A stretch of 63,096 bases of DNA, counting the filler, from Sanchytrium tribonematis (Eukaryota), in the NCBI GenBank assembly GCA_018985235.1. It is 28 parts of 28 records of this genome, joined end to end, with 100 filler letters (N's around TTAATTAATTAA, not from the genome) between each part and the next. Parts side by side here need not be neighbours in the genome. Positions count along the whole stretch, not along the records: positions 10,956 to 26,922 come from JADGIG010000140.1; 27 more parts are not named here. One strand, 5' to 3'. The position numbers were made by a program, and so were the translations under genes. Under the pieces are notes generated by a model. The model saw only the letters and a list, made by a program, of their open reading frames with translations, was not told where the DNA came from and did not search any database. Each line of letters starts with the position of its first letter. Position 1 is the stretch's first letter. Below are positions 1-62,036 of this stretch, in pieces.

Positions 1-1124
1 AGAGGGGCAATTAATGCAAGAGCAGTTCTACAACAGTCTAATTATAACGATGAAACTATTTATGATGACGAAGTAACGTCAACTATTCCGGTAACTATCA
101 GAGGTGGATCACAATATATGAGGAAAATAAAAGGCAACATTTTTGCCTTTATTAAAACAATTGGAGTGCCAAGCTTGTATTTAACATTTAGTTGCGATGA
201 ATCCAATTGGTTTTCTTTGAGTTTATATCTAAAACAGTTTGGTACTATAGAAGACAATAATACATTACCAACACACATTCAAAATCCTTGGTTAACAAAT
301 CACTTTTGTTATGAAAGATTACAAGCAATGTGCAAATACATTAAAGATAATGGGTATTTAGGGTATGATGTTACACACTTTTTTCGAAGATTTGAGTTTC
401 AGCAAAGAGGAACTGTTCATGTTCAAACTCATTCATGCTCTACAAACTATTGCTTACGTAATGGAACTTGTAGATTTCATTTTCCTCAACCAGTTAGTAC
501 TTTATCACAATATGATGCCGAAAACGATGTTTTTGTAATTGCTCGATCTACTAACGAAGTCATGATAAATAACTATCACCCAGCATTTTTAAAAGCTTGG
601 AGAGGTAATATGGATGTCAAATTGGTTACGTCAGAAAACGTGGCATTTTATATTTCCAAATATATGACAAAAGATGAGCCTTTTTCCGTAGGCATCGATG
701 AAACTAATTATGCAAGACGATATTTGACGTATCGAGATATTTCTACGCATGAGGTAAGTCATTACACTATGGGCAACAACATTGCACAGTTTAGTACAAA
801 AGTTGTACCTATCCAATTGTGTTATACACTATTAGAGCAACGAACGTTACAACCAGTAAATAGAATAGCAGCACTTGATGACGAAGATGAAGATATATAT
901 TATGACAATGCAGTTGATCTATACTGTAAAAGGCATAACTCATTAGAAAATTTTTCCATAATTGAATATTTTCAACAACACAAAAAAGCGCCTAGAAGCT
1001 ATCGAGGTACCGTACTTTTGGATTATGACGGTCAGCGATGGCAAAAATGTAATACAGAACTAGTTGTTCGCTTGTTTCCTTACTACACTGAATGGGCAGG
1101 TGATAAATACTATGCCCAAATTAT
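1..1124 (+). mobile_element. Helitron RepHel fragment (Rep/HUH region), apparently with an internal deletion; truncated at both contig ends
   Basis: Frame open from base 1. Motifs IRGGSQY, GVPSLYLTFS, FEFQQRGTVH, CRFHFP, NNYHP, WRGNMDVK and YISKYMTK are typical of Helitron Rep domains. Confidence 0.9.
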
Positions 1125-10762: not shown

Positions 10763-11016
10763 TTTTACGTCAAGCCACAAAATATTTGACAATTAAAGAG
10801 TTGATCAATAAGACACGGACAGTCAAATCATCCATTCAAAGTGTCAAAGATCGCGNNNNNNNNNNNNNNNNNNNNNNNNNNNNNNNNNNNNNNNNNNNNT
10901 TAATTAATTAANNNNNNNNNNNNNNNNNNNNNNNNNNNNNNNNNNNNNNNNNNNNATCATTTACACATCCAAAAACTAGACAATAGTATATAAGCTTACA
11001 GATTCCAATTCAATCA

Positions 11017-11145
11017 ATGGCATTCAGCAACAACACTTCATTGCAACCATCTACTTTCTCCTTCAGAGACAATTATGGAAATATTGACATCTCGTCAATT
11101 TTGGGTGGATTTTCAACTCAGTCATTATCAACATTTTTTCCATAA
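11017..11145 (+). CDS. 42-aa micropeptide, copy A: MAFSNNTSLQPSTFSFRDNYGNIDISSILGGFSTQSLSTFFP
   Basis: TATATAAG about 30 nt upstream; stop inside TAAATAAA; CDS identical to 20459-20587 and paralogous to 19435-19563. Confidence 0.85.
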   Translation: MAFSNNTSLQPSTFSFRDNYGNIDISSILGGFSTQSLSTFFP

Positions 11146-11259
11146 ATAAATGATTTGGTTAAAACAATATGAAATCTAACACGATATTCTTTCAAAACGA
11201 TGATATTTTACCAAGACGGAATTTTCTCCACAGTTTTACATTTTTCGGCAATTCTTGAA

Positions 11260-13683
11260 ATGCTAGAATTTCTCAATAATTCAAACTTGGGCCAATCTTC
11301 TGATATTGCTTATTTTAATAACCATCTATTAATAGCAATTAACAATCAATGTCATGTGTACAGCCTCGACATGCAACTTGCAAAAGTCTTGTCAAAATAT
11401 CCCACCACCCTCATTCATCCAGATGCTGGTAAATTCATGACATCTGGTGGAAACAATGTCTGTATTTATGATGCCAAATTTGAATTGATCAGTCAATATA
11501 CCCATCCAGATAATGTGCTTTCTATACAATATCACCCATCAGTACAAATGGCAATGTCTGCATCAAAATCTGATGTCTATTTCTGGCATTCACACACTTC
11601 TATCCAGAAATTCAAATATACAAATGTCAATTGCACTCATTTGTCTGTAGATGGTCAACTTGCTTGTATTTCCAGTGGAAATTTAGTAGAGTTTATGAAT
11701 ATGCAAAATCAAGTTGTACACACGTATTCTTTCAGCAACCCAATTATAACCATTACTTCATTTATCCATAATAATTCCCTCCATTTTGCACTGTTGTCTA
11801 CAAGAGAATGTCATATTGCCAATTATCCAAATCCCACTTCATTCTTTAATATTCCTCCTTCCCAATCCATCTTATACCATGACCAATGCTTAATGATAGG
11901 TTCTTACAATTCAAATTTAAACATTTACTCATTATCTGGAGATGTATTGTTTAAAATTCAAGTTTCTTCTCCAATCATTCAATTGGCTTTTTTGAAATCT
12001 GAAAATCAATTATCAATAGCCCATATTAATGGCATTTCTAATTATCAATATACTTTCAATCCAGTTATGTTGTATATTTACCCATATCATTTCAAATGCC
12101 ATCATTCACACATCACCATTAATCATAAAATGAGAATTCATTTACATGCTCAATTTGTGAATTTGACAGTGTGGGATCATCATTTGTACATTCACACCAT
12201 TAAATACATCAATGCAACACTCTCAAGTCAATTACATGTTTATTTGCACAAGGATATCTTCCAATATCAATTTTCATTACAGGTGCCGTATCCCTGTCTA
12301 TTTCATGTTCAAGACTATATTTACATTTACAACGTGGATGATGCGCAATTATCAGTGTATTCTACAAATGGGAAACTAAAAAGAATCATAGATATTGAAA
12401 TGACGGATATGATTCCAATGCATACTAAATTATTTTATTATTACAATAATAACCAAGTTATGAAATACAATTTGATTGCTTTAGAGCCAATTACATATCA
12501 CACGGTTGAAAATGATATTTTATCTGTTTATTTGTCATACGATTATTCACAAATGGCTATTTATACTGTGGATCATGAATTGTTGTTGGTGGATATGGAT
12601 TCTTTGGAAACTATTCATAGTTATAAAGATGTGTATCAATTTAGGTATAATTTAATCAATGAACAATACATTATGAATTCTAAAGAAGGATTTATTTTAA
12701 ATGGAGAATACATGAATGTGGAAGGCACTATTTTGGGATTTGTGGGTAATACATTAATCTATTACACAGACAAGACTGAATTTATAGAATTAGGCGAATG
12801 GGATTTGGAAGAATTTGATTATCTTAAATTGATTGAAGACAGATTGAAGCAATTTGATGCGGAGCCTACTGCTGTTGTCACAAAACAAACCACACCTGCG
12901 AGCATTATTAGAGATTATATTGTAAAAGGTGAATTTACAAATGCATTGACTTATATTCACACATTCCCATTGCATTTGCAACACCAGTATACTGAAATGT
13001 ACCATAAATTGCAAATTGAATATTATTTAGAAAAGAGTTGGTTTCATTTAATCACAAACCAAGATGTCTTGTTAAAGCATTTTCACAAATTGAGCAAGAG
13101 TCATTCATATTTAGAAATGCATTGGATTCATAGAATATTGTATCAATCATTTGAATATTTTGGATACCACATGATTTATACGTGGTATGGTCGAAAATAT
13201 ACAACTTATCCAATCGAGAGAATATTAAATGCTTGTATTTTAGTATCTAGTAGGTGGCAGATTCGAAAGCAGCTTAGCTATAGTCTAGAATATATTAATA
13301 TTGGGGTAATTCACATGGTGATGGGACACTTGTTTCGACTATTGGGATATCCAGTAGATGCTTTGGAAACACTAGATAAATGCGACAAATTTATTTTTAC
13401 TCGGAAAGATGAACAAAAAATTGATTCATGGCGAATGCGACTGCAAAATTCAGAGCAATCCGAAAGATATGCTATCAAATGTCAATGTAGTGCAAATTTG
13501 TCTATAGAATGGAAGAATAATGATTTAGTTTGTAAGTTGTGCCACAAGACATATAGTCTTAATAAAAGTACGTGGGATGTTTCCACTGGGGTCTTGCAAT
13601 GCGCAAAGTGTCAGCAATGGTTTGATGTGGACTTCGAATATGACATATTAGTACATGAACGATGTTTGTTCTGTGGAGAATAA
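11260..13683 (+). CDS. Highly divergent WD40 + solenoid + Zn-ribbon protein, IFT122-like (IFT-A)
   Basis: N-terminal WD-like repeats (FMTSGGNNVCIY, YTHPDNVLSIQYHP), helical middle, C-terminal Cys pairs (CQC, CKLC, CAKC, CLFC). Confidence 0.65.
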   Translation: MLEFLNNSNLGQSSDIAYFNNHLLIAINNQCHVYSLDMQLAKVLSKYPTTLIHPDAGKFMTSGGNNVCIYDAKFELISQYTHPDNVLSIQYHPSVQMAMSASKSDVYFWHSHTSIQKFKYTNVNCTHLSVDGQLACISSGNLVEFMNMQNQVVHTYSFSNPIITITSFIHNNSLHFALLSTRECHIANYPNPTSFFNIPPSQSILYHDQCLMIGSYNSNLNIYSLSGDVLFKIQVSSPIIQLAFLKSENQLSIAHINGISNYQYTFNPVMLYIYPYHFKCHHSHITINHKMRIHLHAQFVNLTVWDHHLYIHTIKYINATLSSQLHVYLHKDIFQYQFSLQVPYPCLFHVQDYIYIYNVDDAQLSVYSTNGKLKRIIDIEMTDMIPMHTKLFYYYNNNQVMKYNLIALEPITYHTVENDILSVYLSYDYSQMAIYTVDHELLLVDMDSLETIHSYKDVYQFRYNLINEQYIMNSKEGFILNGEYMNVEGTILGFVGNTLIYYTDKTEFIELGEWDLEEFDYLKLIEDRLKQFDAEPTAVVTKQTTPASIIRDYIVKGEFTNALTYIHTFPLHLQHQYTEMYHKLQIEYYLEKSWFHLITNQDVLLKHFHKLSKSHSYLEMHWIHRILYQSFEYFGYHMIYTWYGRKYTTYPIERILNACILVSSRWQIRKQLSYSLEYINIGVIHMVMGHLFRLLGYPVDALETLDKCDKFIFTRKDEQKIDSWRMRLQNSEQSERYAIKCQCSANLSIEWKNNDLVCKLCHKTYSLNKSTWDVSTGVLQCAKCQQWFDVDFEYDILVHERCLFCGE

Positions 13684-13770
13684 ACGGCGCTTTGTTTAAT
13701 TTCTAAGTTTACACTAACAGTCGCAATTATCCAATAACCTGGTACAAGATCCCCCTGAAAACAATTTTAA

Positions 13771-16077
13771 ATGCTCCAGTATTCATTACATTCTGGAGCG
13801 CTTCAACATAAAGATACTCACAATATGGTGTTTGTTAAATTTGGTTTTGTTGATGATGTTTTGATAATTGTGATTCGCGAAATTGGTGGCATTATGCATA
13901 GCCCATTTCATTACTCTGTCACTTTGAATTCAAATGTAAATCTAGATTCAGTATTCTCGTTATTCATCAAGGAGCTTTCAAATTTCATCGCTTCAAAATC
14001 TAAAGAAAAATTTCAATTAACTCTCAAAAATTTAGGAGAATTGAGTCCAAATGATATTCAATTCGAGTTTGACCCAACTGATAAAGAAATTGCAAACTCA
14101 AAAATTGAAAACTACATTTCCTTTAAATCGCTTATTGTTGATTCTCTTGTGAAACCTAATTACAAGCCTACTAAAATTTGGCTCCAAAAACAACTTGAGT
14201 CAAAAGTTTTGGACAGAGTGGATGAGATTTTTAATATTTCGAAAGAAGTAGCTGATCGAATCAGTAAATATAGAAAGGGTGACTTGAGAACTAATACGGA
14301 TAAAGATCAGTTTCCCATTTTTGTTTATGGCGGAGCAACAGGAATAGGAAAGTCGAGATTGCTTCTTGAGCTCAAGGAATTATATAAACTTGACAAATTT
14401 AATCACATCTTACCAGTCTTGATTTCATTTAGCAGTAATACACCTTACACGCCAGCTGAAAGTGATTATGATATGGAAAAAGTAGTGCTGTCACGATGTG
14501 CTTACAGTTTAGGAATTTTTGACGGTGTGGATGGACTACTAGGTGCTTATGAATCTGATCGGCTACAGTTTAGTTTTGTTTTCCGAGATCCTCCAGAGTG
14601 CATATTGCTATTGATCGATGAATTTAATTATTTACCAGATGAAAGACTCGAGGAATTTGTGAGTTATTGCGGCTCTCTTTTGATTCCAGACACTAATAAG
14701 CCTCTGATAATAATTGTTACAGCAGGAACTAATCCCGGAAGATTGAACGAAATATTCACCAAGTCTAGATGCCCTTCAAAATTCTTTCCAATTTCGTCGC
14801 TTAAAATGGCTACTATGATCAAGGACTTGAATATTCAAGATAATCTAACACTTAAAGAAATGTACAGGGTTCTGCAAGATATTTGTGGAATTCCAAGACT
14901 TTATTCAGTCATGAAGCGTATGAGCAAGTTACCAGATACTTATGAAGAGGGAATTTCTACAATTTTGAGTGAGGCCAATATTTGCACAGCTGGAATGGTC
15001 CCTATCCACAAATTGAAGAAAGTTGTTGCATTTTCTCTTTTGGAATACCCAGTGAATGCCAAAGATCAGAATTGGGATGAATATACTGAGGCTGGGCACG
15101 CTTTTTTGTACCCAGGACATCAAAATAAGCATATTATCAAATTTCCAATGTATTGGATCAGCAATACCTCCCACTATTTTGCGCAATTGCAACCACAACA
15201 AAAGAAGCTAATTCAAAGATTGTATTGGTCCGAATCGGAAGAACTAAATAGAATCGACTTTGTGGAATTGGGTGTCATGTGGATAGCATTCAAGACTTAC
15301 CTTTTCTGCGATATTAAGGGAGAAATCGGCGGTTCAATTTCTTTATCAAATTATATTGGTGTCTCTTTGTTAAAAGATGAAAATATTAATTTGAATTCTC
15401 ACATTGATTTGTTTCAAGCACAAAGCAAAGTAACTGATATTGGATTTGAGAATTTAAAACTTTTTGGTTCTGAATCAATTGTAAGAATTGAGAAATCAAA
15501 GCCTTTTATTGTCGCATGTTTAAACAATCAAGATGGCATAGACTGTGTTGAGCTTCTTTTCAATGATTTGTCTGAAGTAATTCTTATATTTTATCAATTC
15601 AGATTACACAATTCGCCTACTCATGCTAAGAAAAATATTGAGTCATCGAAATTCATTAGAAACGTCAAAAATTGGTATGAGTCCAGATATCAAAAAGTTG
15701 ACAAGTTTCTTTACGTAGCAATCTGCAATTACTGTAATTCTGCAACTCACCAATCTGCATTTGCTCCATTAGTGAAAGAAGGAATGAAATTTTGCACTGT
15801 TCAAGGCAGTGACTGCAGAGCTTTTATGTCGTCCATTCTTTGTGAAAGACAAAACATCTGGACTGGATCCGATAAGCTCTTTATTAATGTTGCACCCTCT
15901 GCGGCCTTGAAAATGCTACCAAATATTGATGAGGAGACCGCTGCGACAATTGTCGAAATAAGGGTCGAGGAAAATGGCATAAAGTCTTTTGACCACTTGA
16001 AAGAGCAATTTAAATTGAGAAAAAAACCACTTTTAGAAAATACTTGCAAATCTTTGAAGAAATATATCATTTGGTAA
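13771..16077 (+). CDS. Crinkler-type protein: N-terminal header, P-loop NTPase, REase-like domain, C-terminal ComEA-type helix-hairpin-helix
   Basis: Walker A GGATGIGKS, Walker B LLLIDE, GIPR, NQDGID...IFYQFR, INVAPSAALKMLPNIDEETAATIVEIR. Confidence 0.75.
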   Translation: MLQYSLHSGALQHKDTHNMVFVKFGFVDDVLIIVIREIGGIMHSPFHYSVTLNSNVNLDSVFSLFIKELSNFIASKSKEKFQLTLKNLGELSPNDIQFEFDPTDKEIANSKIENYISFKSLIVDSLVKPNYKPTKIWLQKQLESKVLDRVDEIFNISKEVADRISKYRKGDLRTNTDKDQFPIFVYGGATGIGKSRLLLELKELYKLDKFNHILPVLISFSSNTPYTPAESDYDMEKVVLSRCAYSLGIFDGVDGLLGAYESDRLQFSFVFRDPPECILLLIDEFNYLPDERLEEFVSYCGSLLIPDTNKPLIIIVTAGTNPGRLNEIFTKSRCPSKFFPISSLKMATMIKDLNIQDNLTLKEMYRVLQDICGIPRLYSVMKRMSKLPDTYEEGISTILSEANICTAGMVPIHKLKKVVAFSLLEYPVNAKDQNWDEYTEAGHAFLYPGHQNKHIIKFPMYWISNTSHYFAQLQPQQKKLIQRLYWSESEELNRIDFVELGVMWIAFKTYLFCDIKGEIGGSISLSNYIGVSLLKDENINLNSHIDLFQAQSKVTDIGFENLKLFGSESIVRIEKSKPFIVACLNNQDGIDCVELLFNDLSEVILIFYQFRLHNSPTHAKKNIESSKFIRNVKNWYESRYQKVDKFLYVAICNYCNSATHQSAFAPLVKEGMKFCTVQGSDCRAFMSSILCERQNIWTGSDKLFINVAPSAALKMLPNIDEETAATIVEIRVEENGIKSFDHLKEQFKLRKKPLLENTCKSLKKYIIW

Positions 16078-16193
16078 ACTTTTGCCATTTTTAATTACCA
16101 CATTCAGATTTATTAAACCCAATTGTGCTATAGAATGGAATGTAACTATTATTGTTTTCAATACATGATCGGTGCTTGAAATAAATGACTTTA

Positions 16194-18945
16194 TTAAGAT
16201 GCTAATGCATCAGCAACTAATTGACTGATCTCAGCTACATCGCTTTTGACTTTGATTTCTAAATTTACACCCACATTAGGCTCCAAAACCATCCTGACGA
16301 CACTAAGCACTTTGATGCCCCCATAAAAGATACCACTTAATTTTAAAACATGGCTCAAATCATTGGTGATTATTTCAGTCTTGTCAACTGCTTTTAGTCC
16401 CAATAATTCTTGCAATGTTTTCACAGTGGTTGCTAAATCTTTGAGAGCAGTAAGTTGGTAGGTTTCTTTTGCTTCATTGCCTAAAGAATCCCATGCCTTT
16501 GTGAATGCAGGAACCTGACTACCTTTGATGTAATGTCCAATCTGTATTTCAACTTGCTCCAACTAAATTATTAAAAATTACATTGTAAGTTTCTTCATAT
16601 CCTTGTTCACTATCTGGCTCAAATGTTTCAGGATCGCAATCTTTGACCGTCATTTTCAAAGCTGCATTAAATGTGGGTAACGGAATTGTGTTTGGTGCTT
16701 TCTGGTATGCAATAAAAGTGCTGTTTGGTCCACTATAATTTACAGTGCAAGGAACAACTACTTTTAATTTCAAAGAATTAGATATGTCTTCTGTTGGATT
16801 TAGTTGAACTTGAGCATTTTCAATAAGGACATCTTGCAAGGTATTAGTGATTTCAAATTGAAATACAATTGCGTCATTTTTGAACATATGGATAAAGAGC
16901 TTAACTACATATTCAGTTTCTTGCTCTGTTAATAATATAGGCGCACTCGTTGAGAAATAAAATTGGCTAAGAGGAGCAAGCTGTGGAATATTTGAAAAGA
17001 TGTCTTGGTGATTAACTGGTTCTGCTGGTGCAATTTCTGGGCTTTGAACAATTGTAGGTTCATTCTGAAGAGTTGGCTTAGCAGTGACTTGCTCAACTGC
17101 TTCAACTTTACTAGTGTATGAGATATCTTGTAAATCTAATGGTCCACTTTTGTATGCTGTCAGATAAGCTGAAAGTTGTTCGATATTTACGACCAAATCA
17201 TCGATGATATATTTTTGCATCCAATCTTTTCTTTTCAAAACGTGAATATAAAACAAGGCTCTATCACGGACTTCATTGTCTTGATCACTGATACACTTCT
17301 CAAGCAAGTTTAATATTCGATTTAAAATCTTAGGGCTTTTCGCACCAAACATAGCTAACGCATGAACAGCTGCAGCTCTGACATTGCTGGACTCTAAAAT
17401 GATTCTATTGTAAATGTATCTGATGTATTGCTGTGGATTATCACTAGATGGACCTTCTATCCCCAAAACATGTAATATTCTAACACTTAAAGTTGTATAC
17501 TCGCAATCTTCAATGAATTCACATAGGTGCTGGAGAGCAGTCGATTTACACTCTGGAATGTTTCTTAACAAATCGAAAATTGCATCGACAATTGATTTTT
17601 TGTATTGGAAATTTCCCTCATCTCTCAATACGTTTGCTAAGAATGCCAACAAAGTTGGATATTTTTTCGGAAATTTGATGCTCAACGATCTGACAGCTTC
17701 TACGACAATGATTTTAAATTCTTCAGTGATGTCATTCAAAAAGAGCTGAATTTGCTTCATCAATCTATCAACACTTTGCTCAGTTCCAGTTTTTAACAAA
17801 GTTGTAATTGCATAAGTGGCAATGCTTCTATTATTATCAGTAATCATATTTTCCATATCAATATTGTAATTGCTAACCAATGTAGGGTAGAACATGCTGA
17901 GTTTGTTGAAATATCGAAGAGCGGCAAATTTAAGTGCAACCTTCGAGCTGCTTAATAGGATACTGAGTTGCGTCACACAGGGATATACTTGCTGAGTAGT
18001 CAAAACCATTCCAACGCCTTTGCTTGTTTTGTAAAGCGCAATATCTGAGATACATTTGCACGCTTCTAAACTGACCATTTCGTACTTACTACTCAAAGCC
18101 TTGGTGATGAACTCAAAAATTTGTAAAAGAGGACCGTTGAGCCATTCTCCTGGAGCTTGATTATTGTACTCACTTAACAAACAAGACTTGCTCATTTTTA
18201 ATAGAACGCAAAGTGCCCATGGAGAATTGACTGCTTTGTGATATTGTAAACAAAGTTTAATAATAGCCATAGAATCTTGTTTTTTGAGCAAATATAATGT
18301 TGCCAAAGCGTGGTAACTAGTAAAATCGTATCCACCCACTTGATCTTGAATTAAATTGCTCCATTTTTTAACAATGTCCTTATTAAATGAATACATTGTA
18401 TAAGCACTACATATGGCGGAAGATGCTGTGATAGGTTGTTTATCTACAAGGCAGGTGGTATAAAATCGTTCAAATGCTTGCAGTAAACTAGGATCAATCA
18501 ATTTGGAAAGAGTTTTTAAAGCATTTGAAGTGTGAAGTAAATGCTGATCTCTTGGCCCATCTTCGAGCTTTGTGCTTAAAGAAATAGTATTTTGTTGCTT
18601 TCCGAACAGTTCTTCATGCGTACTTGCAATATCTTTGGTCAGCAAATTAGTCATGATAATCGTATCTTTGGCATTGGTCAATTCCATCATTAAAATATAG
18701 ACAATCTGCCTCAATTGGTATTCTTTACAATTGAATAATTTCGATGCAGCAAAAAACAATTGAGTTTGTTCATCTTGAGTCAACTCATAATATGCATTTT
18801 TGCCGGAATTATTTATGTAAAGTAAGCATTTTGCAATTAACAAACGACATTTGCGGCTATTCACTTGCTGATGGAAGATCTTCGCATTTTGAAGTAGATA
18901 AGATTTGTCAGGCAGCGAAAAACTCTGGTCGTTTTTCTTGGACAT
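16194..18945 (-). CDS. SEC21: Coatomer gamma subunit, 19-nt intron at 16563-16581
   Basis: DNNRSIATYAITTLLKTG, LCEFIEDCE, YIRYIYNRIILE, LTEQETEY. Likely start is MSKKND at 18945; the track extension to 19134 runs into the micro-gene repeat. Confidence 0.97.
16563..16581 (-). other. 19-nt intron GTAATTTTTAATAATTTAG
   Basis: Joins EETYN|LEQVEIQIG in the gamma-COP appendage. Confidence 0.93.
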
Positions 18946-19008
18946 TTTTGAATGTTTCAAAAAACTCTCTTGGATTGAAATTAGTAAGATTAAAATTTTA
19001 AAGTAAGG

Positions 19009-19269
19009 CCTATTTATTGTAAGGAATAAAAGAAGGCATATCGTTGTAATAACACTCGAATTTGCCATTGATAAATCAATCTGAACAATTGGACGTTTGT
19101 AGTTGCAATTTCTAACCAAAGAGACATAATACAACGGGCCTAGTTGGTATTTATACGTTAGTCTAACATAATCAATCTATTAGATTTCATATTGGATGTG
19201 TGTAAGTAAATCAAAAGTGCCGTCAAGCCTTGACCCACCACATCTAATACACAAAAAACACACATCCAA
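19009..19269. repeat. About 260-bp direct repeat, copy 1 (copy 2 at 20060-20319)
   Basis: Near-identical; all differences lie outside the 114-nt ORF it carries. Confidence 0.97.
19014..19127 (-). CDS. 37-aa micropeptide, copy 1: MSLWLEIATTNVQLFRLIYQWQIRVLLQRYAFFYSLQ
   Basis: TATAAATA on the minus strand ends 20 nt before the ATG; stop lies within AATAAA; repeat homology ends 5 nt past the stop. Confidence 0.65.
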   Translation of the reverse strand: MSLWLEIATTNVQLFRLIYQWQIRVLLQRYAFFYSLQ

Positions 19270-19434
19270 GTTGTCGTTTTATACTTATTTTGAAGTTTTT
19301 TAACAGAAATTCTCAAATATCATTTGCAGATTAATAAATTCAACATCCTATTGGTCAGTATTATGAATTGGACGTGATGTGTTAGCGATTTAAGCTAAAA
19401 ATTTGTATAAATAGCAACAAATTGTCTTTTTCCA
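19128..19434. promoter_or_regulatory. Candidate bidirectional promoter with two outward-facing TATA boxes and clustered CACATCCAA-like motifs
   Basis: TATA at about 19148-19155 (-) and 19406-19413 (+). Motif copies at 19192 (rev), 19239, 19261, 19342 and 19368 (rev). Confidence 0.65.
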
Positions 19435-19563
19435 ATGGCTTTTAGCAACAACACTTCAGTCCAACCATCTACTTCTTCATTCCGAAACAACTATGGAAAT
19501 ATTGACTTTTCCTCATTGTTTGGAGGATTTTCCACTCAGTCTTTATTTACATTTTTCCCTTAA
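19435..19563 (+). CDS. 42-aa micropeptide, divergent paralog B: MAFSNNTSVQPSTSSFRNNYGNIDFSSLFGGFSTQSLFTFFP
   Basis: Same length as copies A and C; about 11 synonymous versus 7 amino-acid-changing codons; TATAAATA upstream; TAAATAAA at the stop. Confidence 0.87.
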   Translation: MAFSNNTSVQPSTSSFRNNYGNIDFSSLFGGFSTQSLFTFFP

Positions 19564-19973
19564 ATAAATAATGTCAAACAACAATCTGAATGTCTAAATT
19601 TATTTTTAGCTGCTTCATTAAATGACACAGTCTAGGATATTCATAATCGACAAATTAAAACTGAGACCTAACAAAATTAATCTAGAACACATGAATTTAT
19701 ATTAATTTTGTATCTTGGTAAAACGGCTATTATTCACTTATAGATAGATTTTGCTTCTTAGCTACTCAGTGTGATGAAATATCAACAACAAATTTCAAAT
19801 TCATACCCAAATGTATGTATAAAACAAGATATTGATAAAAGCAAATTAAATAAAATTGAAAATGTAATTTATTCACAGAAACTGTCCAAGATAGAATTCC
19901 ATAAAACTGTTGAGTTGATGAAAGAATTGAATATTATATAACTAAAACGATATTCTTTAGGCTACTAAAATTA

Positions 19974-20013
19974 AAGCAGTTTACATAAAATGTAAGCAGT
20001 TTACATAAAATGT
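19974..20013. repeat. 20-bp tandem duplication AAGCAGTTTACATAAAATGT x2; an about 36-bp segment (AAACAAGATATTGATAAAAGCAA...) also recurs at about 19822 and 20020
   Basis: Direct reading. Confidence 0.9.
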
Positions 20014-20064
20014 AGTATCAAACAAGATATTGATAAAAGCAATTTGAATAAAATTTAGACCTAT

Positions 20065-20178
20065 TTATTGTAAGGAATAAAAGAAGGCATATCGTTGTAA
20101 TAACACTCGAATTTGCCATTGATAAATCAATCTGAACAATTGGACGTTTGTAGTTGCAATTTCTAACCAAAGAGACAT
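20065..20178 (-). CDS. 37-aa micropeptide, copy 2 (identical to 19014-19127)
   Basis: Identical 114-nt ORF with the TATA box retained. Confidence 0.65.
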   Translation of the reverse strand: MSLWLEIATTNVQLFRLIYQWQIRVLLQRYAFFYSLQ

Positions 20179-20458
20179 AATACAACGGGCCTAGCTGGTA
20201 TTTATACGTTGGTCTAACATAATCAATCTATTAGATTTCATATTGGATGTGGGGAAGTAACTCAAAAGTGCCGTCAAGCCTTGACCCACCACATCTAATA
20301 CACAAAAAGACACATCCAAAACGACGATGGTGACGTAGATAGCACACAACTGAACAAATTATAGTAAATACAAGTTGAATAGATCATTTGGCCGTATATC
20401 ATTTACACATCCAAAAACTAGACAATAGTATATAAGCTAGCAATTTCCAACTTAATTA

Positions 20459-20587
20459 ATGGCATTCAGCAACAACACTTCATTGCAACCATCTACTTTC
20501 TCCTTCAGAGACAATTATGGAAATATTGACATCTCGTCAATTTTGGGTGGATTTTCAACTCAGTCATTATCAACATTTTTTCCATAA
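20459..20587 (+). CDS. 42-aa micropeptide, copy C (CDS identical to copy A)
   Basis: 20398-20592 repeats 10956-11150. Only the TATA-to-ATG spacer has diverged. Confidence 0.85.
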   Translation: MAFSNNTSLQPSTFSFRDNYGNIDISSILGGFSTQSLSTFFP

Positions 20588-20709
20588 ATAAAAAATGATT
20601 CAAATTCATACATTTCTATTAATTTTAATTATTTTTTGCTCAAACTTTAGAAAGTTTAACACTAATCTTGATTTACGATTTTTTTAATTATTTGAAACGA
20701 CTTTTTAAA

Positions 20710-21210
20710 ATGAAGCAATTCATGCTAAAAATACCTTGTAACTCTCTTAATGTTCACGACATTTTGGATTGTGTAATACATAGCATATTATTTCAGCGAC
20801 TGATGATACCGATTCAGCCAAAAGATGAGCAATTACAACTGGATGAATCAGTTGTTTACTGGGTCAAAATTAACAATTCTACAATATCATCCAGTGTTAA
20901 AACTAAAATACAAGAACTTGTGCAACAAGGACATAGACAGTGTGTAGTCCGCTTTTATTACTCAATTTCGCAAAGTTGGTTCTTATCAAAACAACAATAT
21001 TATGAATCCTGGTTACTGCAGCTTCATTATACCGATGCTGAATATGCAATAGAGATAGATGAAATTATTCAACAAATTTTAAATCATAGTTTATACCAGA
21101 TACCCAAATTGGGGAAAGACAAAGAAATAGGATTCGATATACAATTTCTCAATAACTGGAGCCAGGGTCTTTTTGGAAAACTGATGGATGTCCAGCCTAC
21201 CTTGCTTTAA
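20710..21210 (+). CDS. ATG101: Autophagy-related protein 101 (HORMA)
   Basis: IHSILFQR..PIQP, SWF finger, YESW; size fits. Confidence 0.8.
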   Translation: MKQFMLKIPCNSLNVHDILDCVIHSILFQRLMIPIQPKDEQLQLDESVVYWVKINNSTISSSVKTKIQELVQQGHRQCVVRFYYSISQSWFLSKQQYYESWLLQLHYTDAEYAIEIDEIIQQILNHSLYQIPKLGKDKEIGFDIQFLNNWSQGLFGKLMDVQPTLL

Positions 21211-21239
21211 TAAATCATATATCTCTTCATCACAAACGG

Positions 21240-22310
21240 ATGTTGCAAAAGGAAATTACGATTTGTTTGTCGGGTGGAATAGATTCCGCAATAGCTGGCT
21301 ATTTACTAAAGAAAAGAGGGTATAAACTTAAGGCCATTTACATGAAGAACTGGGATACACCTATTACACCTGATCCTACACCAAAAGTTAACAGAAATTT
21401 TGATCTGAGTTGTCCCTTTCACAAAGATTATTTATATGCACAAAATATTGCTGAATTCCTAGAGATTGATTTAAAACTAATTAATTTAGAAAAAGAATAC
21501 TGGAATTTAGTTTTCGAACCTTTTCTAGAGGAATTAAAAGATGGAAACACCCCAAATCCAGATATAACATGCAATCAGTCTATTAAATTTGGAGCTCTTC
21601 GAGACCATTTAGATACCAAATTATTGGCAACGGGACACTATGCGAGGCTTATTAATGGCCATCTGACTAGGGCAAGAGATCGATTTAAAGACCAATCCTA
21701 CTTTCTATGCGAAGTTGAAAATTTTGACAATTGCGTATTTCCTTTAGGAGATATTTTAAAGCTACAGGTTAAATGGCTAGCATACAAGATTTCTAAGTCA
21801 GGCCGACCCAATTCTAAAATTTTTGAAGACCTGCTTCAAAAGAAGGAAAGTATGGGCATTTGTTTTATTGGCAAGAGAAAATTTGGAGACTTTGTTGGCG
21901 AGTACATCGAACATACCAAAGGGAAAGTCATTGATATTCGAAATCATAGAGTCATTTCTGATCATCAAGGTTTGCATCTGTTTACAATAGGGCAAAAAAT
22001 TAGGATTTCTGGCCAGCCTGAAAGTTTGTTCGTAATTCGAAAAAATGAAACCGATATTTATGTTGGACCGCATGATCATCCCGAATTGTTCACCGATACA
22101 ATTAATGCTTCAAAAATTAAATGGGTATTTAAGCCGGATAACTGCAAAGCGTTAAAATACAAATGTCGACACCCAAGTTCTCTAAAAGATTGTACATACG
22201 ATTCAAAATATAATTTAATTAGGTTTTCAATCCCTGTTCGTGCTATGACACCTGGGCAAACACTGTGTTTCTATGATAATGATTTAGTTGTTGGAAGCTT
22301 CAAACTATAA
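21240..22310 (+). CDS. SLM3: Mitochondrial tRNA 2-thiouridylase (MnmA/TRMU)
   Basis: SGGIDS, YMKNWD, TPNPDITCN, ATGHYA, KDQSYFL, ESMGICFIG, TPGQ. Confidence 0.96.
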   Translation: MLQKEITICLSGGIDSAIAGYLLKKRGYKLKAIYMKNWDTPITPDPTPKVNRNFDLSCPFHKDYLYAQNIAEFLEIDLKLINLEKEYWNLVFEPFLEELKDGNTPNPDITCNQSIKFGALRDHLDTKLLATGHYARLINGHLTRARDRFKDQSYFLCEVENFDNCVFPLGDILKLQVKWLAYKISKSGRPNSKIFEDLLQKKESMGICFIGKRKFGDFVGEYIEHTKGKVIDIRNHRVISDHQGLHLFTIGQKIRISGQPESLFVIRKNETDIYVGPHDHPELFTDTINASKIKWVFKPDNCKALKYKCRHPSSLKDCTYDSKYNLIRFSIPVRAMTPGQTLCFYDNDLVVGSFKL

Positions 22311-22397
22311 TTAATTTCAACTTATTTACTAAAATGAAAGCCTTGATATGCTATTGTATTAAGACATTGCTCAAAATAAATCCGGAACTCATACAAC

Positions 22398-22724
22398 TTA
22401 TTGTTCTCTCCACAAATGTTTGCAAGAACAACACTTATAAAATATTGTAGATGGCTCATCCGCACTTCGAGTTTGAACTTGCATAAAATATGCCCTGGTG
22501 TGTTGACACTGGGGACAAATAGTGTCCGTAGCGTCTACATTCTTCCATGCTTCCTCGCCACCCAATACATCATCAACTTGTTTCTTTTTCAAAGGCTGAT
22601 GAAATGAATATGTCTCTCGAATTTTATAGATATATGGGCAAGCAGGGCAAGAAAATCTATTTCTTCCTTCCATCTGGTCGGCTTCAACTAATAACATGTT
22701 TCCACAATTGGGACAAAAAATCAT
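22398..22724 (-). CDS. RPC11: RNA polymerase III subunit C11
   Basis: MIFCPNCGNML, VDDVLGGEEAW, QVQTRSADEP. Confidence 0.97.
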   Translation of the reverse strand: MIFCPNCGNMLLVEADQMEGRNRFSCPACPYIYKIRETYSFHQPLKKKQVDDVLGGEEAWKNVDATDTICPQCQHTRAYFMQVQTRSADEPSTIFYKCCSCKHLWREQ

Positions 22725-22746
22725 GTTTACTCCTTTAAATTTTTGA

Positions 22747-23035
22747 ATGTCAAGTATTGGCAATCCAGGCAATATAAGCTCGAGTAAGTATTCCAGTGCT
22801 CCAGACAAAGGGTCCTTTCCGCTAGACAGATCTGGAAAGTGCAGGACTCAAATGACTTCTTACATAAAGTGCTTGAAAGAAAACAAGCAAAAAACAGAAA
22901 ATTGTAGAAGTCTGAGTGCATTTTATTTAAAATGTAGAATGGAAAAGTATTTTTGATTTATTCAGTCGGTTAATGGATGAAGAAGAATTGTCTATTTTAG
23001 GCTTCCCTCAAGCCAATCTGAAGAAAGATTTTTGA
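22747..23035 (+). CDS. COX19: Cytochrome c oxidase assembly factor (twin CX9C), 19-nt intron at 22947-22965
   Basis: PDKGSFPLD..G.C; spliced end reads YLKCRMENRLMDEEELSILGF. Confidence 0.95.
22947..22965 (+). other. 19-nt intron GTATTTTTGATTTATTCAG
   Basis: Restores the conserved LM....LGF tail of COX19. Confidence 0.93.
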
Positions 23036-23060
23036 GCAGAAAGAGGAGTTAACGGGAGTC

Positions 23061-23381
23061 ATGGGTTCTTTTGTCTGTGATACCTGCCAGGACACTATTA
23101 AGAAAGGCAAAGTAAAAACGCATGTATATAATTGTAATATGTATACAATATCTTGCGTTGATTGCGGCAAAACATTCACTATAAAAACCTACAACTTACA
23201 CAATCAATGTATGACAGAAACCGAAAAATACGCTGGTGCATTGGCAAACGAGCGAGTCAAAAAACAGGCTTCCGAAATCAAAATTGACGATATTAAAGTC
23301 CTGTCAAAAAAAATCAAAAAGGAAAAGAAAAAAAAGAAAAAAACCAACAAAAAATCAAAATCACATGGTCTTATAAAGTAG
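23061..23381 (+). CDS. LYAR-type C2HC zinc-finger nucleolar protein
   Basis: SFVCDTCQDTIKK, SCVDCGKTF, HNQCMTETEKY, Lys-rich tail. Confidence 0.92.
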   Translation: MGSFVCDTCQDTIKKGKVKTHVYNCNMYTISCVDCGKTFTIKTYNLHNQCMTETEKYAGALANERVKKQASEIKIDDIKVLSKKIKKEKKKKKKTNKKSKSHGLIK

Positions 23382-23388
23382 AATAAAT

Positions 23389-24042
23389 TTACTGTTCGTG
23401 TTTTGGGTAGCCAATGTTATGATGATTTTTGATCGAATAGTAACTTTCTGAGTGAACTTGCTTCACAATTCCAACTGGCTCAAAATGTGGTTCCTTTTCA
23501 TTTTTTAAGGATCTAATCTCGGATTTAAGCCGTTCATTTTCTTCTTGAAGTTGATTGACTTTCTTACGACTCTCCTGGTTAATATTTAACAATGTATTCT
23601 TTTCTGCGTTGTGTTTCTCAATAAAATTCTCATGTAATTCTGACATATCATCAATCAATGTATTGATCTTAAGATCGAAGCTTCCAAACTGCTGAAATTT
23701 TAATTGAAGATCATCGTAATCAGATCTTAATTTTTTGTAAGATTCTGCCAAATCGGCCAAATCGTTGTTAGATGTAGATGGAGCATCGGGGTTTGCAGAA
23801 TTTGTAGGCTTTGTCATTATTTTTCTATGAACAATTTCTAGATCATCTATAATCTTGATAATTTCATCATCAATTATGGAAATCCGACGAACACTGCCCT
23901 TGCTCATTTTACTCTTCTGTTTTATTTCATCAAGTTCATCCTGAAGCTTATCAATCTGTTGTTGTTGCTCGACATTTCTGGTTAACAACGTTTGGCGAGT
24001 GTTTCGCAACGCACGGTTTTGTTCTTCCAAATCGAGTTCCAT
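23389..24042 (-). CDS. Coiled-coil hypothetical protein
   Basis: 217-aa ORF with heptad composition. Confidence 0.75.
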   Translation of the reverse strand: MELDLEEQNRALRNTRQTLLTRNVEQQQQIDKLQDELDEIKQKSKMSKGSVRRISIIDDEIIKIIDDLEIVHRKIMTKPTNSANPDAPSTSNNDLADLAESYKKLRSDYDDLQLKFQQFGSFDLKINTLIDDMSELHENFIEKHNAEKNTLLNINQESRKKVNQLQEENERLKSEIRSLKNEKEPHFEPVGIVKQVHSESYYSIKNHHNIGYPKHEQ

Positions 24043-24085
24043 CTCCTTTGTTTGAGTTTGGCAAATGAAGTGAAACTTTTTATTT

Positions 24086-25330
24086 TCAATACAAACCCGG
24101 TATAATTTTATATTTCACAATCTCGCAATACTTGTTCCAGCCATCACCATACTTTTTTGAGCATTTTTGATCATCCCTTATACTTCTATGGATTAATAAA
24201 ACAGTCAAGTAAATTGGATACAACAGAGTCACTTCATTAAATGTTCCAGTCGTACACCACGCCAAACTTGCCAATATTTCAGGGACATAATTGAAATGTC
24301 TGCTCCATCCCCAAAATCCGGTGTAAAGTAACTTTGATTCTTGTAGTCCTTGATCTGTCTCATATTCTACAGTTAATATTCGCGCTTGTTTCCCAAACAG
24401 AAAACAATTACCATCAGTTTGTCTTGCAAGTTGCCTTTGGTAGTCTACCCAATAATTTAGTCCTATCATCAAAAGCCCGAAAATTCCAAAAACAAAAGAA
24501 ATCGAAAACCCAGAATCCACTTTTGACTGATGCATCCAATAGTAGCTGCTTAGTGTGTAAAATGTTGGGATCAAACAGACACAGCCGTAGCATATCATAA
24601 AGCCAGCATGGTCAACAATAATGTCAATCGACTTCATATATCCGCTTTCCCACCAGAAGAATTTGGCAATGTATATTGATTGCAGAGCAAAACAAACGAG
24701 AGCATTTGTGGAGTAATGAGCTTTAAAAAAGCAATAAATTATAATGTTCCACAACATCATTCCATACCTACAATTTGTAAATAATTTAATGTCAAAGTTG
24801 CGAATTCTAGGGTATAATTCAATACCCCAATATAAATCAAATAAAAAGTTAGATCTAAAATACTCACCATGACTAGGATAGAATATTCCTTTTATATAAA
24901 GAAGAATAACAACTAAAATTCCTATAAAATTACTGAATATCGTATAAACTACAAAATTTTCCGCTAAAAGCTTCACATCAAATTGTCCCTGAATTTCCAT
25001 ACCTGCCATCATACTCATTGTTAAGACGTAATAAATAAATCCATTATCTCTGTATCTGGGGGTAAACCCAGTAGAAGTTTCTGGTCCATAATAATATTTT
25101 CCAAATGGTATATACTGAGAAGCTGCTGCCCATATAACAAACAAAATCCATTGTTTAATCCATTTAAAAGAAGCCGCATTTGACAATAAATTAGGTATTT
25201 CTGCTATACTATTTCCAGATACGTAAGAAATTAATAATATATTTAGAAATGGAACCACAAGTATAGCTATGAGCGGAAACAAGTTATATTTCCATAGTTG
25301 CTCTAGTTGAGATCGTCTCTCAACCAACAT
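24086..25330 (-). CDS. DHCR7: Sterol delta-7 reductase (ERG4/ERG24 family, DHCR7/DWF5 type)
   Basis: YWGIELYPR, FDIKLFTNCR.GMM, KFFWWESGY, GFWGWSRHFNY, RDDQKCSKKYG. Confidence 0.88.
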   Translation of the reverse strand: MLVERRSQLEQLWKYNLFPLIAILVVPFLNILLISYVSGNSIAEIPNLLSNAASFKWIKQWILFVIWAAASQYIPFGKYYYGPETSTGFTPRYRDNGFIYYVLTMSMMAGMEIQGQFDVKLLAENFVVYTIFSNFIGILVVILLYIKGIFYPSHGEYFRSNFLFDLYWGIELYPRIRNFDIKLFTNCRYGMMLWNIIIYCFFKAHYSTNALVCFALQSIYIAKFFWWESGYMKSIDIIVDHAGFMICYGCVCLIPTFYTLSSYYWMHQSKVDSGFSISFVFGIFGLLMIGLNYWVDYQRQLARQTDGNCFLFGKQARILTVEYETDQGLQESKLLYTGFWGWSRHFNYVPEILASLAWCTTGTFNEVTLLYPIYLTVLLIHRSIRDDQKCSKKYGDGWNKYCEIVKYKIIPGLY

Positions 25331-25594
25331 TTGTTTCAGGTTCCCCAGATTTTGTAAAATTGCACTTATTACGGGGAAATGTAACAAAATAACGAGTCAT
25401 CCTTAGTAATGAGGTGCTCGTATAATTTAAGGCACGAATTAACGCTTACAATGACCTTGGCTGAAATTTGTTAGACTTTTGAGATTTTAAATTTCATTTT
25501 TGTCTTGAAATTCCTATGTTGAAAATATATCATAAAAACTGGTTTCACTAAGATCTTTGCCTAAGGGTTCAAGCAATTCATTCTTGATCACACA

Positions 25595-26915
25595 ATGAAC
25601 CCGAAACAATTTAATAAACATTTAAATATGAATGCAATATATTTGAGTGAATTTCAAGACAACTTCAGTGAATTGGATGAGTTTCTATGTATGTATATAA
25701 ATGAAAATAATATTATTCTTAGAATGGAATGGTTTGGAGTTTTGGAAATTGTGTTTCCTGATCAATATTATGATGTATTGAAAATGGCAGTACAAGATTT
25801 GATTGAGATGAATGCATTAAATGGGTTCATAATCCAAGACCATTTACTTGTGGTTCACCCGGACGAAGAAATCGAAAGAGTTTCCAACATAATCAATGAA
25901 TTGAAAGAAGAAAGAGACTTGGAAATACTTGTTGACTGCCTTAATTTGAAAAAGTATTACAGTTCCACTCTACGAAGACTTGAATGGACCATGAAGTATG
26001 GAGATGTCGATGATCAACATATAAAGATTCTAAGTAGAACAATCTTTGTTTCGAGGCTCGGCAGAGCCAATGTACAGCAAATCAGAACCTTGTTTCGACA
26101 ATTCGGTTATATCGATAAAATCGATTATGATCAATTGAAAAAACGATGTTTTATCAAATATAGGTACAGGATAGGAGCATCTGCAGCTATAGAAGCTGTT
26201 TTGCACTTAAATGACACCAAATTACTTGTTCGATATGCATGGCCATTTGGTAGTCGCAACTAACTTAGGACCTCAAGATGATTTTTTCTACGACGAAGGC
26301 TATTCTGTCACCCATATCGAGAGATTTACGGAAGCGGATATCAAGGCACTAGTTGATTGTCGACATGGTGGAATGAAAACATTTCAAGGAGGGATGACTA
26401 TTGAGGAACCATTTATTCACATGTTTAAAAGCCAGGATTATTTGCCCAAAGACTCTTTCTACGAGCAAAGCCAATTTCAAGGGCCTTGGAGTATTGTATC
26501 TCACAAGCTAGACTGTAACCATATTCAAGTCTTCAGCAGAACTCTTTACGTGGGAAATCTGTGCAATACAAACAAATATGAACTAGCTGATTATTTTAAT
26601 TACAACGATAAGATACAAATTGAATCCTTGGAATATGTTGATGCTAGACATTGCTGCTTCTTGAAGTTAAAAACAAGAAAGATGGCAGAATTAGTCTTGA
26701 AGGCATACCATTTAAAAATTTATAACAATAATGTTATAAAAATTGGATTTGCTTGTGGATTTGGCCCCAAAGAAGCATTTGATTACAAAAAAGGTGTAAG
26801 TATGATTCCTGTTTACAACTTAACTCAATTAGATCATAAATTGCTCAAAGCATCTAATATCATATTAAAAGGCAGCCAAATTATAGATGAACCGATGGCA
26901 TTCCTGAACAAATAG
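25595..26915 (+). CDS. Protein with two Nrd1/Seb1-type RRM modules, 19-nt intron at 26250-26268
   Basis: Two repeats of HI...SRT(I/L)(F/Y)V...(C)F.K...R..A...FGP.....G.S; the first FGP forms only after splicing. Confidence 0.8.
26250..26268 (+). other. 19-nt intron GTAGTCGCAACTAACTTAG
   Basis: Contains a canonical ACTAAC branch site; joins WPF-G-PQDD. Confidence 0.93.
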
Positions 26916-27022
26916 CAAAATGNNNNNNNNNNNNNNNNNNNNNNNNNNNNNNNNNNNNNNNNNNNNTTAATTAATTAANNNNNNNNNNNNNNNNNNNNNN
27001 NNNNNNNNNNNNNNNNNNNNNN

Positions 27023-36923: not shown

Positions 36924-37006
36924 TGAGAGAGAGGGGATTCGAACCCCTGCTTACAGAGTAAATCACGGCCTTAACGTGACGCCTTAGACCACTCGGCCAC
37001 TCTCCC
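36924..37006 (-). tRNA. tRNA-Leu(AAG)
   Basis: Acceptor GGGAGAG/CTCTCTC-A, D arm TGGCCGAGTGGTCTAAGGC, anticodon arm TCACG-TTAAGGC-CGTGA, long variable arm, T arm AGGGG-TTCGAAT-CCCCT. Confidence 0.96.
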
Positions 37007-61852: not shown

Positions 61853-62036
61853 CTTGGAGAGGGGCGTTGCTGCTATTTACATTGAAATATAACCCATTGA
61901 ATGGTCGATAATTAGAATATTCTAAAAATGGCATTTNNNNNNNNNNNNNNNNNNNNNNNNNNNNNNNNNNNNNNNNNNNNTTAATTAATTAANNNNNNNN
62001 NNNNNNNNNNNNNNNNNNNNNNNNNNNNNNNNNNNN

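What the first reader, a model, noticed from the sequence alone, without database searches (positions are those of the whole stretch)
19009..20592. Duplicated cassette of two divergently transcribed micropeptide genes
Seen: the ORF-free gap between gamma-COP and ATG101 holds two units of [37-aa gene on minus] - about 300 bp - [42-aa gene on plus]: 19014-19127 with 19435-19563, and 20065-20178 with 20459-20587. All four have a TATA box ending 20-22 nt before the ATG and a stop overlapping AATAAA. The spacers are long for a genome where genes are usually 3-60 nt apart. Neither peptide resembles anything I recognise, and neither has a CAAX box or classical signal peptide. Inference: a co-regulated two-peptide module. 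Possible roles include a toxin/antidote pair, mating or recognition signals, processed peptide precursors, or abundant stage-specific structural peptides.
Basis: partly seen in the sequence, partly recalled or inferred. Interest (0 to 1): 0.85.

Follow-up and report, generated by a model that had tools for sequence, protein, structure and literature searches.

The report
Repeated head-to-head pair of orphan microproteins
In a gene-dense genome, likely from an alga-parasitic fungus, two tiny genes with no known relatives (37 and 42 amino acids) sit back to back around a likely shared promoter in several copies and show signs of selection on their protein sequence; they are likely switched on together to make abundant building blocks at one life stage, though expression and function are untested.

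Summary
All four ORFs, their TATA boxes (20-22 nt before ATG) and stop-overlapping AATAAA are where stated; 0 of 22 longer genes checked have such a TATA box. The 42-aa gene B is under purifying selection (dN/dS 0.13, p=2e-5). The 37-aa gene A has a diverged copy in the one sequencing run holding this DNA: likeness stops at the ATG and just past the stop, and 3 of 3 listed changes are silent (5 more unlisted). Copies look homogenised by gene conversion. No relative was found in any protein, family, structure or RNA search. A folds as one hydrophobic helix; B is predicted disordered. Best reading (0.4): a co-induced, high-output pair of structural microproteins, organised like silkmoth chorion or histone gene pairs but unrelated to them. 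Toxin-antidote (0.17), signal or effector peptides (0.18) and independent roles (0.18) stay open. No RNA data, complex model or sister genome was available.

The parts
19014..19127 (-). Gene A, copy 1: 37-aa ORF, hydrophobic and Gln-rich, predicted single helix
   Evidence: identical in DNA to A2 (114 of 114)
19128..19434 (.). Spacer 1 (307 nt), likely bidirectional promoter: TATA for A1 at 19148-19155(-), TTGGAYGT sites at 19192, 19262 (reverse) and 19368, 13-nt palindrome at 19222-19234, TATA for B1 at 19406-19413(+)
   Evidence: promoter function inferred
19435..19563 (+). Gene B, copy 1: 42-aa ORF rich in Ser/Thr/Asn/Gly and Phe, older paralog (35 of 42 residues identical to B2)
19810..20064 (.). 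Non-coding stretch downstream of A2 that is also repeated elsewhere in the genome; left flank of the A2-B2 type unit
   Evidence: the 55-aa ORF at 19774-19941 has no TATA and 3 of 3 variants change residues
20065..20178 (-). Gene A, copy 2
   Evidence: diverged copy laid here with 3 of 3 listed changes silent
20179..20458 (.). Spacer 2 (280 nt), likely bidirectional promoter: TATA for A2 at 20199-20206(-), TTGGAYGT sites at 20243, 20312 (reverse) and 20407 (reverse), palindrome at 20273-20285, TATA for B2 at 20429-20436(+)
   Evidence: first 130 nt match spacer 1 at 125 of 130, the B-proximal half aligns poorly
20459..20587 (+). Gene B, copy 2
10956..11016 (.). Cut-off spacer of a third unit at the contig start, with TTGGAYGT site (10965, reverse) and TATA at 10987-10994
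11017..11145 (+). Gene B, copy 3, upstream of an IFT122-like gene; ORF identical to B2 (129 of 129 nt) but 7 differences in the last 19 nt before the ATG and a different 3' flank

Best explanation
Two protein-coding microgenes, A (37 aa) and B (42 aa), lie head to head in several copies and are likely switched on together from one shared TATA promoter to give large, matched amounts of two peptides that would act as building blocks of one stage-specific cell structure. Shown: the ORFs, TATA boxes, copies, and purifying selection on B. Supported less strongly: that A is coding, and that gene conversion keeps copies alike. Inferred: a factor binding the repeated TTGGAYGT sites drives both genes at one stage (for example sporangium, zoospore or cyst formation), and extra copies raise output. 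Speculative: A, a helix hydrophobic on most sides, packs with itself, with B or on a lipid surface, while B, a disordered polar-aromatic chain, folds or polymerises on assembly. With no classical signal peptide, the structure would most simply be inside the cell (a granule, lipid body or cortical coat).
For: Selection on B: 18 of 42 codons differ between B1 and B2, 11 silently; 16 of 23 base changes at third positions; dN 0.10, dS 0.77, Fisher p=1.8e-5. A: diverged copy whose likeness ends at the ATG (20178) and just past the stop (20063), 3 of 3 listed changes silent, chance about 0.05. TATA boxes mark these five genes and 0 of 22 longer genes. TTGGAYGT occurs 3 times in each spacer (0 of 5000 shuffles reach 3; 3 sites in 58,413 nt elsewhere), once in each poorly alignable B-proximal half; a control for picking the motif afterwards gave 43 of 1500 (spacer 1) and 1 of 1500 (spacer 2). 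Pairing: A1 sits beside the old paralog B1, A2 beside B2, and an unbroken contig piece carrying the seven B3-type letters runs back through the spacer to 20279, the next piece to 20213. Conversion signature: identical ORFs with diverged leaders and flanks. Paired divergent genes with a common promoter, tandem copies and gene conversion are how silkmoth chorion structural genes are organised (PMC4639761, passages). Slow protein change fits a structural role better than an arms race (inference).
Against: No expression, localisation or binding evidence of any kind. A's helical amphipathicity is no better than shuffles of its own residues (2429 of 5000 reach it) and its best 19-residue hydropathy is only 0.82, so neither a lipid-surface nor a transmembrane role is supported. 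B's model is low confidence (pLDDT 53). A diverged A copy seems to lack the spacer and B within 710 nt at 80% likeness, which argues against strict 1:1 use. 5 of the 8 differences in the diverged A pieces were not listed and could not be classed. All extra-copy evidence comes from one run that may be the source of the window itself. Neither peptide has the signal peptide expected of wall or coat proteins (no dedicated predictor run). The chorion comparison is an analogy of gene layout only.
Confidence: 0.4

Rival explanations
1. A poison-antidote module: one peptide harms cells that lack the other, and the unit spreads by duplication and conversion, like fungal spore killers.
For: Tight linkage; the unit is copied as a block to at least three places; one A copy seems to stand without B, as a lone antidote might. 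A very small fungal poison is on record: RFK-1 of at least 39 aa (10.1101/404004, passages).
Against: Purifying rather than diversifying change; A1 pairs with both B types without changing a residue, so no lock-and-key divergence between units. In the Neurospora case the resistance gene rsk is a separate gene and RFK-1 derives from a longer gene; no longer relative of B or A was found. A sexual cycle is not shown for this organism here.
Confidence: 0.17
2. Precursors of signals or small effectors (mating or recognition cue, cyclic or modified peptide, or a two-peptide agent against the host alga or bacteria), exported without a signal peptide.
For: Strong inducible-type promoter and several copies; B has Pro at 11 and 42, which could be cut sites (sequence); A is net +2 and aromatic-rich; the organism is likely a parasite.
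Against: No Cys (no CAAX), no dibasic site, no repeated core, no follower after a second Pro (sequence); B1/B2 changes are spread over positions 9-38 with no hypervariable core; no processing enzyme or transporter among the flanking genes; 0 hits in Pfam and NCBIfam; A is not significantly amphipathic.
Confidence: 0.18
3. Two real genes induced by the same cue (stress, dormancy, encystment) but doing separate jobs; they share a promoter and were copied together for dosage.
For: Head-to-head layout is common in this compact genome; A seems to occur without B; no shared sequence between A and B proteins.
Against: The A-B layout is kept across an old split (dS 0.77 between B1 and B2) even though half of the spacer has been replaced or has diverged.
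Confidence: 0.18
4. A is not a protein gene (non-coding RNA or repeat), or the duplication is an assembly artefact.
For: A1 and A2 are identical, so the window alone gives no selection test; only 3 classed changes support A's frame (p about 0.05).
Against: No Rfam match at gathering score; folding z -0.88 and -1.36; TATA, ATG, stop and AATAAA in register; likeness of the diverged copy bounded by ATG and stop; B1 and B2 differ at 23 bases and each has its own flanking contig in the run, so the duplication is not a simple artefact.
Confidence: 0.07

Closest known systems
Silkmoth chorion A/B gene pairs (PMC4639761, passages read)
   Same: Paired, divergently transcribed genes with a common promoter region, TATA boxes, shared cis-elements, tandem copies, gene conversion, some unpaired members.
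   Different: No sequence relation found; chorion proteins are secreted and number 127 genes; here 37 and 42 aa, no classical signal peptide, a handful of copies, in a fungus-like microbe; co-expression and structural role untested.
Histone gene pairs on bidirectional promoters (recalled; PMC6900853 seen as search listing only)
   Same: Head-to-head pair, short spacer, several copies, slow protein change, presumed matched output.
   Different: No histone fold or Pfam match; peptides are not Lys/Arg-rich; no relatives outside this genome found.
Neurospora Sk-2 rfk-1 / rsk poison-resistance system (10.1101/404004, passages read)
   Same: A very small fungal ORF (at least 39 aa) can be a poison.
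   Different: RFK-1 came from partial duplication of a longer gene and may be longer after splicing; rsk is not described as a head-to-head micropeptide partner; no sequence comparison was run; no toxicity shown here.
MSDIN-type cyclic peptide precursors and a-factor-type pheromone precursors (features recalled)
   Same: Short multi-copy ORFs of similar size; B has a Pro at position 11.
   Different: No Pro-bounded short core with follower, no CAAX, no family hit.

Membership tests
Chorion-type divergent structural gene pair | Two genes head to head on a short common promoter with TATA boxes and shared cis-elements | tested here: met
   (layout only)
Chorion-type divergent structural gene pair | Repeated as a unit, copies homogenised by conversion | tested here: met
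   conversion inferred from identical ORFs with diverged flanks
Chorion-type divergent structural gene pair | Coordinate stage-specific expression | not testable with these tools
   no RNA run available
Chorion-type divergent structural gene pair | Homology to chorion proteins | tested here: not met
   0 Pfam, PDB and protein-library hits; works-like claim only
Poison-antidote (spore-killer-like) element | Tightly linked pair copied as a block | tested here: met
Poison-antidote (spore-killer-like) element | One product toxic, the other rescuing | not testable with these tools
   needs expression tests
Poison-antidote (spore-killer-like) element | Fast divergence into mutually specific pairs (recalled trait; allele specificity described for rsk) | tested here: not met
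   dN/dS 0.13 for B; same A beside B1 and B2
a-factor-type lipopeptide pheromone precursor | C-terminal CAAX (recalled) | tested here: not met
   no Cys in A or B
alpha-factor-type / Kex2-processed precursor | Signal peptide, dibasic sites, repeated cores (recalled) | tested here: not met
   no dibasic site or repeat in the sequences; hydropathy maxima under 0.9; no signal-peptide predictor run
MSDIN cyclic peptide precursor | Leader ending in Pro, short Pro-ended hypervariable core, follower (recalled) | tested here: not met
   B has Pro only at 11 and 42; changes spread out; 0 hits
Hydrophobin | Eight Cys and secretion (recalled) | tested here: not met
   no Cys
Fungal NLR amyloid signalling motif peptide | Known motif family, or motif shared with a neighbouring NLR N-terminus (recalled) | tested here: not met
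   0 Pfam hits; tblastn of B against the window gives nothing better than E 3 outside its own copies
Structured non-coding RNA | Rfam match or unusual folding | tested here: not met
Transposon-borne unit (MITE or Helitron capture) | Terminal inverted repeats, target duplication or Helitron ends | tested here: inconclusive
   no inverted repeat marks the unit ends; other copies' ends not readable

The most novel reading that the evidence does not exclude
A selfish or host-directed two-microprotein poison-antidote cassette, both partners under 45 residues, driven from one symmetric promoter and spreading by duplication and gene conversion in an early-diverging zoosporic fungus, with a lone A copy acting as a free antidote or toxin.
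Probability: 0.15. Interest if true: 0.85.

Novelty: new variant of a known kind. Interest (0 to 1): 0.5.

Why it matters
Both peptides are absent from a 15-billion-protein collection, so standard annotation misses them, yet they carry the only clear TATA promoters among the genes checked and are kept in several copies in a genome with almost no spare DNA. They are therefore good candidates for major stage-specific products of a poorly known fungal lineage in which most lineage-specific proteins lack annotation (93.4% of 1217, PMC8371127 section 6, if the lineage guess holds). The TATA plus TTGGAYGT signature also gives a direct way to find the rest of that regulon. If the pair is poison and antidote it would be an unusually small eukaryotic system of that kind.

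Tried and rejected
No whole genome is held for this window, so no genome-wide tblastn and no sister-genome test. No RNA holder listed. No model of an A-B complex was obtained; binding is untested. Homology searches without result: Pfam, NCBIfam, PADLOC, PHROGs at E up to 10; PDB sequences; ESM Atlas; B against 5.8 billion proteins, near and longer lengths; A against 1.84 billion representatives, 0 at E 0.001; exact look-up 0 of 3; B in viral contigs 0 of 90 candidates. One metagenome hit for B (L001, 1 of 120 candidates, 38%) rejected: it lies in a stop-to-stop frame without matching start or ends and rests on the search word. 29 prokaryotic matches to a motif of A rejected: at most 12 of 37 residues alike including the searched core, 29 of 29 scored (one search had scored only 14). 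A was not searched in metagenome or viral contigs. A and B as ancient inverted paralogs: DNA z 3.0 against B1 but 1.5 against B2, inflated by shared start and stop; protein scores below shuffle mean: not supported. A as amphipathic helix: not above shuffles. The 55-aa ORF at 19774-19941: rejected as a gene. Contig depths (single-copy about 103-125; A about 417-650; B2 type 255) hint at about 5-6 A and 3-4 B copies but are no copy number. Uncovered bins at 19070-19217 reflect placement on the identical copy. Single-gene tree (30 of 30 rows) leaves the lineage on a very long branch and does not place it. Earlier scan notes: 4 look-ups, nothing relevant. Fold search not run: a single helix and a pLDDT 53 model give no meaningful matches.

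Full report
Setting. The window is a string of contigs joined by N-padded linkers; the finding lies on the piece 10956-26922. The genes are eukaryotic, close-packed and mostly uninterrupted, GC 27-35% by 2-kb bin. The mitochondrial processing peptidase beta subunit has two unnamed relatives at 72-73% and then chytrid and blastoclad proteins at about 40%; in a tree of all 30 hits these three form a fully supported group on a very long branch that the tree cannot place. An IFT122-like gene (weak Pfam hit) points to a flagellated stage. This fits the sanchytrids, fast-evolving alga-parasitic zoosporic fungi with small genomes of about 35% GC (PMC8371127, passages and section 6 read). That assignment is an inference (about 0.8). 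No whole genome was held.

Observation. The four ORFs are at the stated places, between gamma-COP and ATG101. TATA 8-mers end 20-22 nt before each ATG. This is special: 14 of 2283 ATGs in the window have it, five being these genes, and 0 of 22 longer genes do. One of 3000 shuffles of unit 1 gave two such small ORFs. The stop-overlapping AATAAA is real but common here (6 of 22), and two of four other head-to-head gaps are also near 300 nt.

Is B a gene? Yes. B1 and B2 differ in 18 of 42 codons, 11 silently; 16 of 23 base changes are at third positions; dN/dS is 0.13, Fisher p=1.8e-5. A third copy, B3, sits at 11017-11145 at the broken start of the same contig, 9.4 kb upstream of B2. Its ORF equals B2's at 129 of 129 bases, while the last 19 nt before the ATG differ at 7 places and the 3' flank differs right after the poly-A signal.

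Is A a gene? Probably. A1 and A2 are identical (114 of 114), so the window gives no test. One public DNA run, X1, holds the stretch; it may be the source of the window and is not independent support. Laid on the locus, its contigs show a diverged A: a 782-nt record matches 20107-20178 with 6 other letters and turns unlike exactly at the ATG, and a 163-nt record matches 20063-20119 with 2 other letters and turns unlike just past the stop and AATAAA. That both belong to one copy is inferred. The three differences that the tool listed are third-position and silent in A's frame (chance about 0.05 for random transitions); the other five were not listed. There is no Rfam match and no unusual RNA folding.

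Do A and B travel together? Mostly. In X1 an unbroken 314-nt piece carries the seven B3-type letters and runs back through the spacer to 20279; the next piece runs to 20213, with no loose end listed there. B3 is therefore likely the end of a third A-spacer-B unit. Variant letters downstream of A2 (20058, 19855-19970) also point to further A copies with related flanks. Against strict pairing, the 710 nt upstream of the diverged A did not lay on the spacer or on B at 80% likeness, whereas the 83% B1 paralog did (5 records not shown). It is either alone or paired with a more diverged B.

Promoter and history. Each spacer holds, from the A side, TATA, TTGGATGT, a 13-nt palindrome, the same 8-mer reversed, a third TTGGAYGT site and the TATA of B. 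The first 130 nt are 125 of 130 alike between units; the B-proximal halves align poorly, yet each keeps one site, in different place and orientation. No shuffle of 5000 reaches 3 sites; a control for choosing the motif afterwards gives 43 of 1500 and 1 of 1500; the rest of the window has 3 sites in 58,413 nt. I read this as a regulated bidirectional promoter; that is inference. An identical A beside an old B paralog, and identical B ORFs with diverged leaders, are best explained by gene conversion among copies.

The peptides. A: 23 of 37 residues hydrophobic, five Gln, charges E6, R16, R24, R29; AlphaFold gives one helix, residues 3-36, pLDDT 93 from a single sequence, which for a short helix says little about function. 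Its helical moment is no higher than shuffles (2429 of 5000) and its hydropathy is below a membrane-spanning level. B: 22-23 of 42 residues Ser/Thr/Asn/Gln/Gly, 13 Phe/Tyr/Leu/Ile/Val, 2-3 charges, no Cys; model pLDDT 53, largely disordered. No search found a relative of either; one metagenome hit and 29 prokaryotic motif matches were rejected as chance. A and B are not detectably related to each other.

How it most likely works. Rare TATA promoters, short leaders, several copies, slow protein change and a kept head-to-head layout are what one expects of products needed in bulk, together, at one stage. I commit to a pair of structural microproteins for a stage-specific structure, most simply inside the cell (0.4). 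The gene-level steps are shown or well supported; co-expression is inferred; co-assembly and the structural role are speculative. Rivals: signal, processed or effector peptides (0.18), co-induced but independent genes (0.18), poison-antidote (0.17), A non-coding or artefact (0.07).

Comparison with known systems. The layout works like silkmoth chorion pairs, which are divergently transcribed from a common promoter, tandemly repeated and subject to conversion (PMC4639761, passages), and like histone pairs (recalled). It is a member of neither: no homology. Neurospora RFK-1 shows that a fungal poison can be about 39 aa (10.1101/404004, passages), but the lock-and-key divergence expected of such systems is not seen. 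CAAX pheromones, Kex2 precursors, MSDIN precursors and hydrophobins fail on sequence (features recalled).

Novelty. Five literature searches (titles and abstract starts of the listed papers only) showed no description of such a pair; one search listed 15 of 16,710 papers, none mentioning sanchytrids. Supplementary protein lists of PMC8371127 were not read and could bear on whether these ORFs were annotated. The library lacks most subscription papers. Verdict: two real, apparently undescribed orphan microprotein families in a known kind of gene arrangement, function open.

Noticed in passing
window, whole: The window is not one molecule: about 25 short contigs of 1.1 kb and two of 16 kb joined by N44-linker-N44; ORFs crossing linkers are artefacts.
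   Followed up: yes
window 13771-16077 (+): 768-aa intronless ORF between B3 and gamma-COP with a C-terminal helix-hairpin-helix hit and weak AAA/NACHT hits; the layout recalls Crinkler-type NTPase-nuclease proteins (recalled, not tested).
   Followed up: partly
window 118-1122 (+): Fragment of a Helitron-type helicase (Pfam Helitron_like_N): rolling-circle transposons are present in this assembly.
   Followed up: partly
window 11200-13683 (+): Highly diverged IFT122-like gene (below Pfam cut-off), in line with a reduced flagellum.
   Followed up: no
window 59712-60398 and 61989-62840 (+): Two near-identical C-terminal fragments of a DNA helicase-like protein on separate contigs: a duplicate or two haplotypes.
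   Followed up: no
window 57724-58391 and 61343-61852 (-): Leucine-rich-repeat protein fragments, one with an apparent signal peptide and Cys-rich cap: likely an expanded surface-protein family.
   Followed up: no
window 18946-19068 (-): The gamma-COP frame is open upstream to an ATG inside A1 (19068), another frame of the same strand; automatic annotation would extend gamma-COP over A1 and hide it.
   Followed up: partly
window 46116, 52611, 57516: The only other TTGGAYGT sites in the window; not examined.
   Followed up: no
window 36924-37006 (-): tRNA-Leu(AAG) gene.
   Followed up: no
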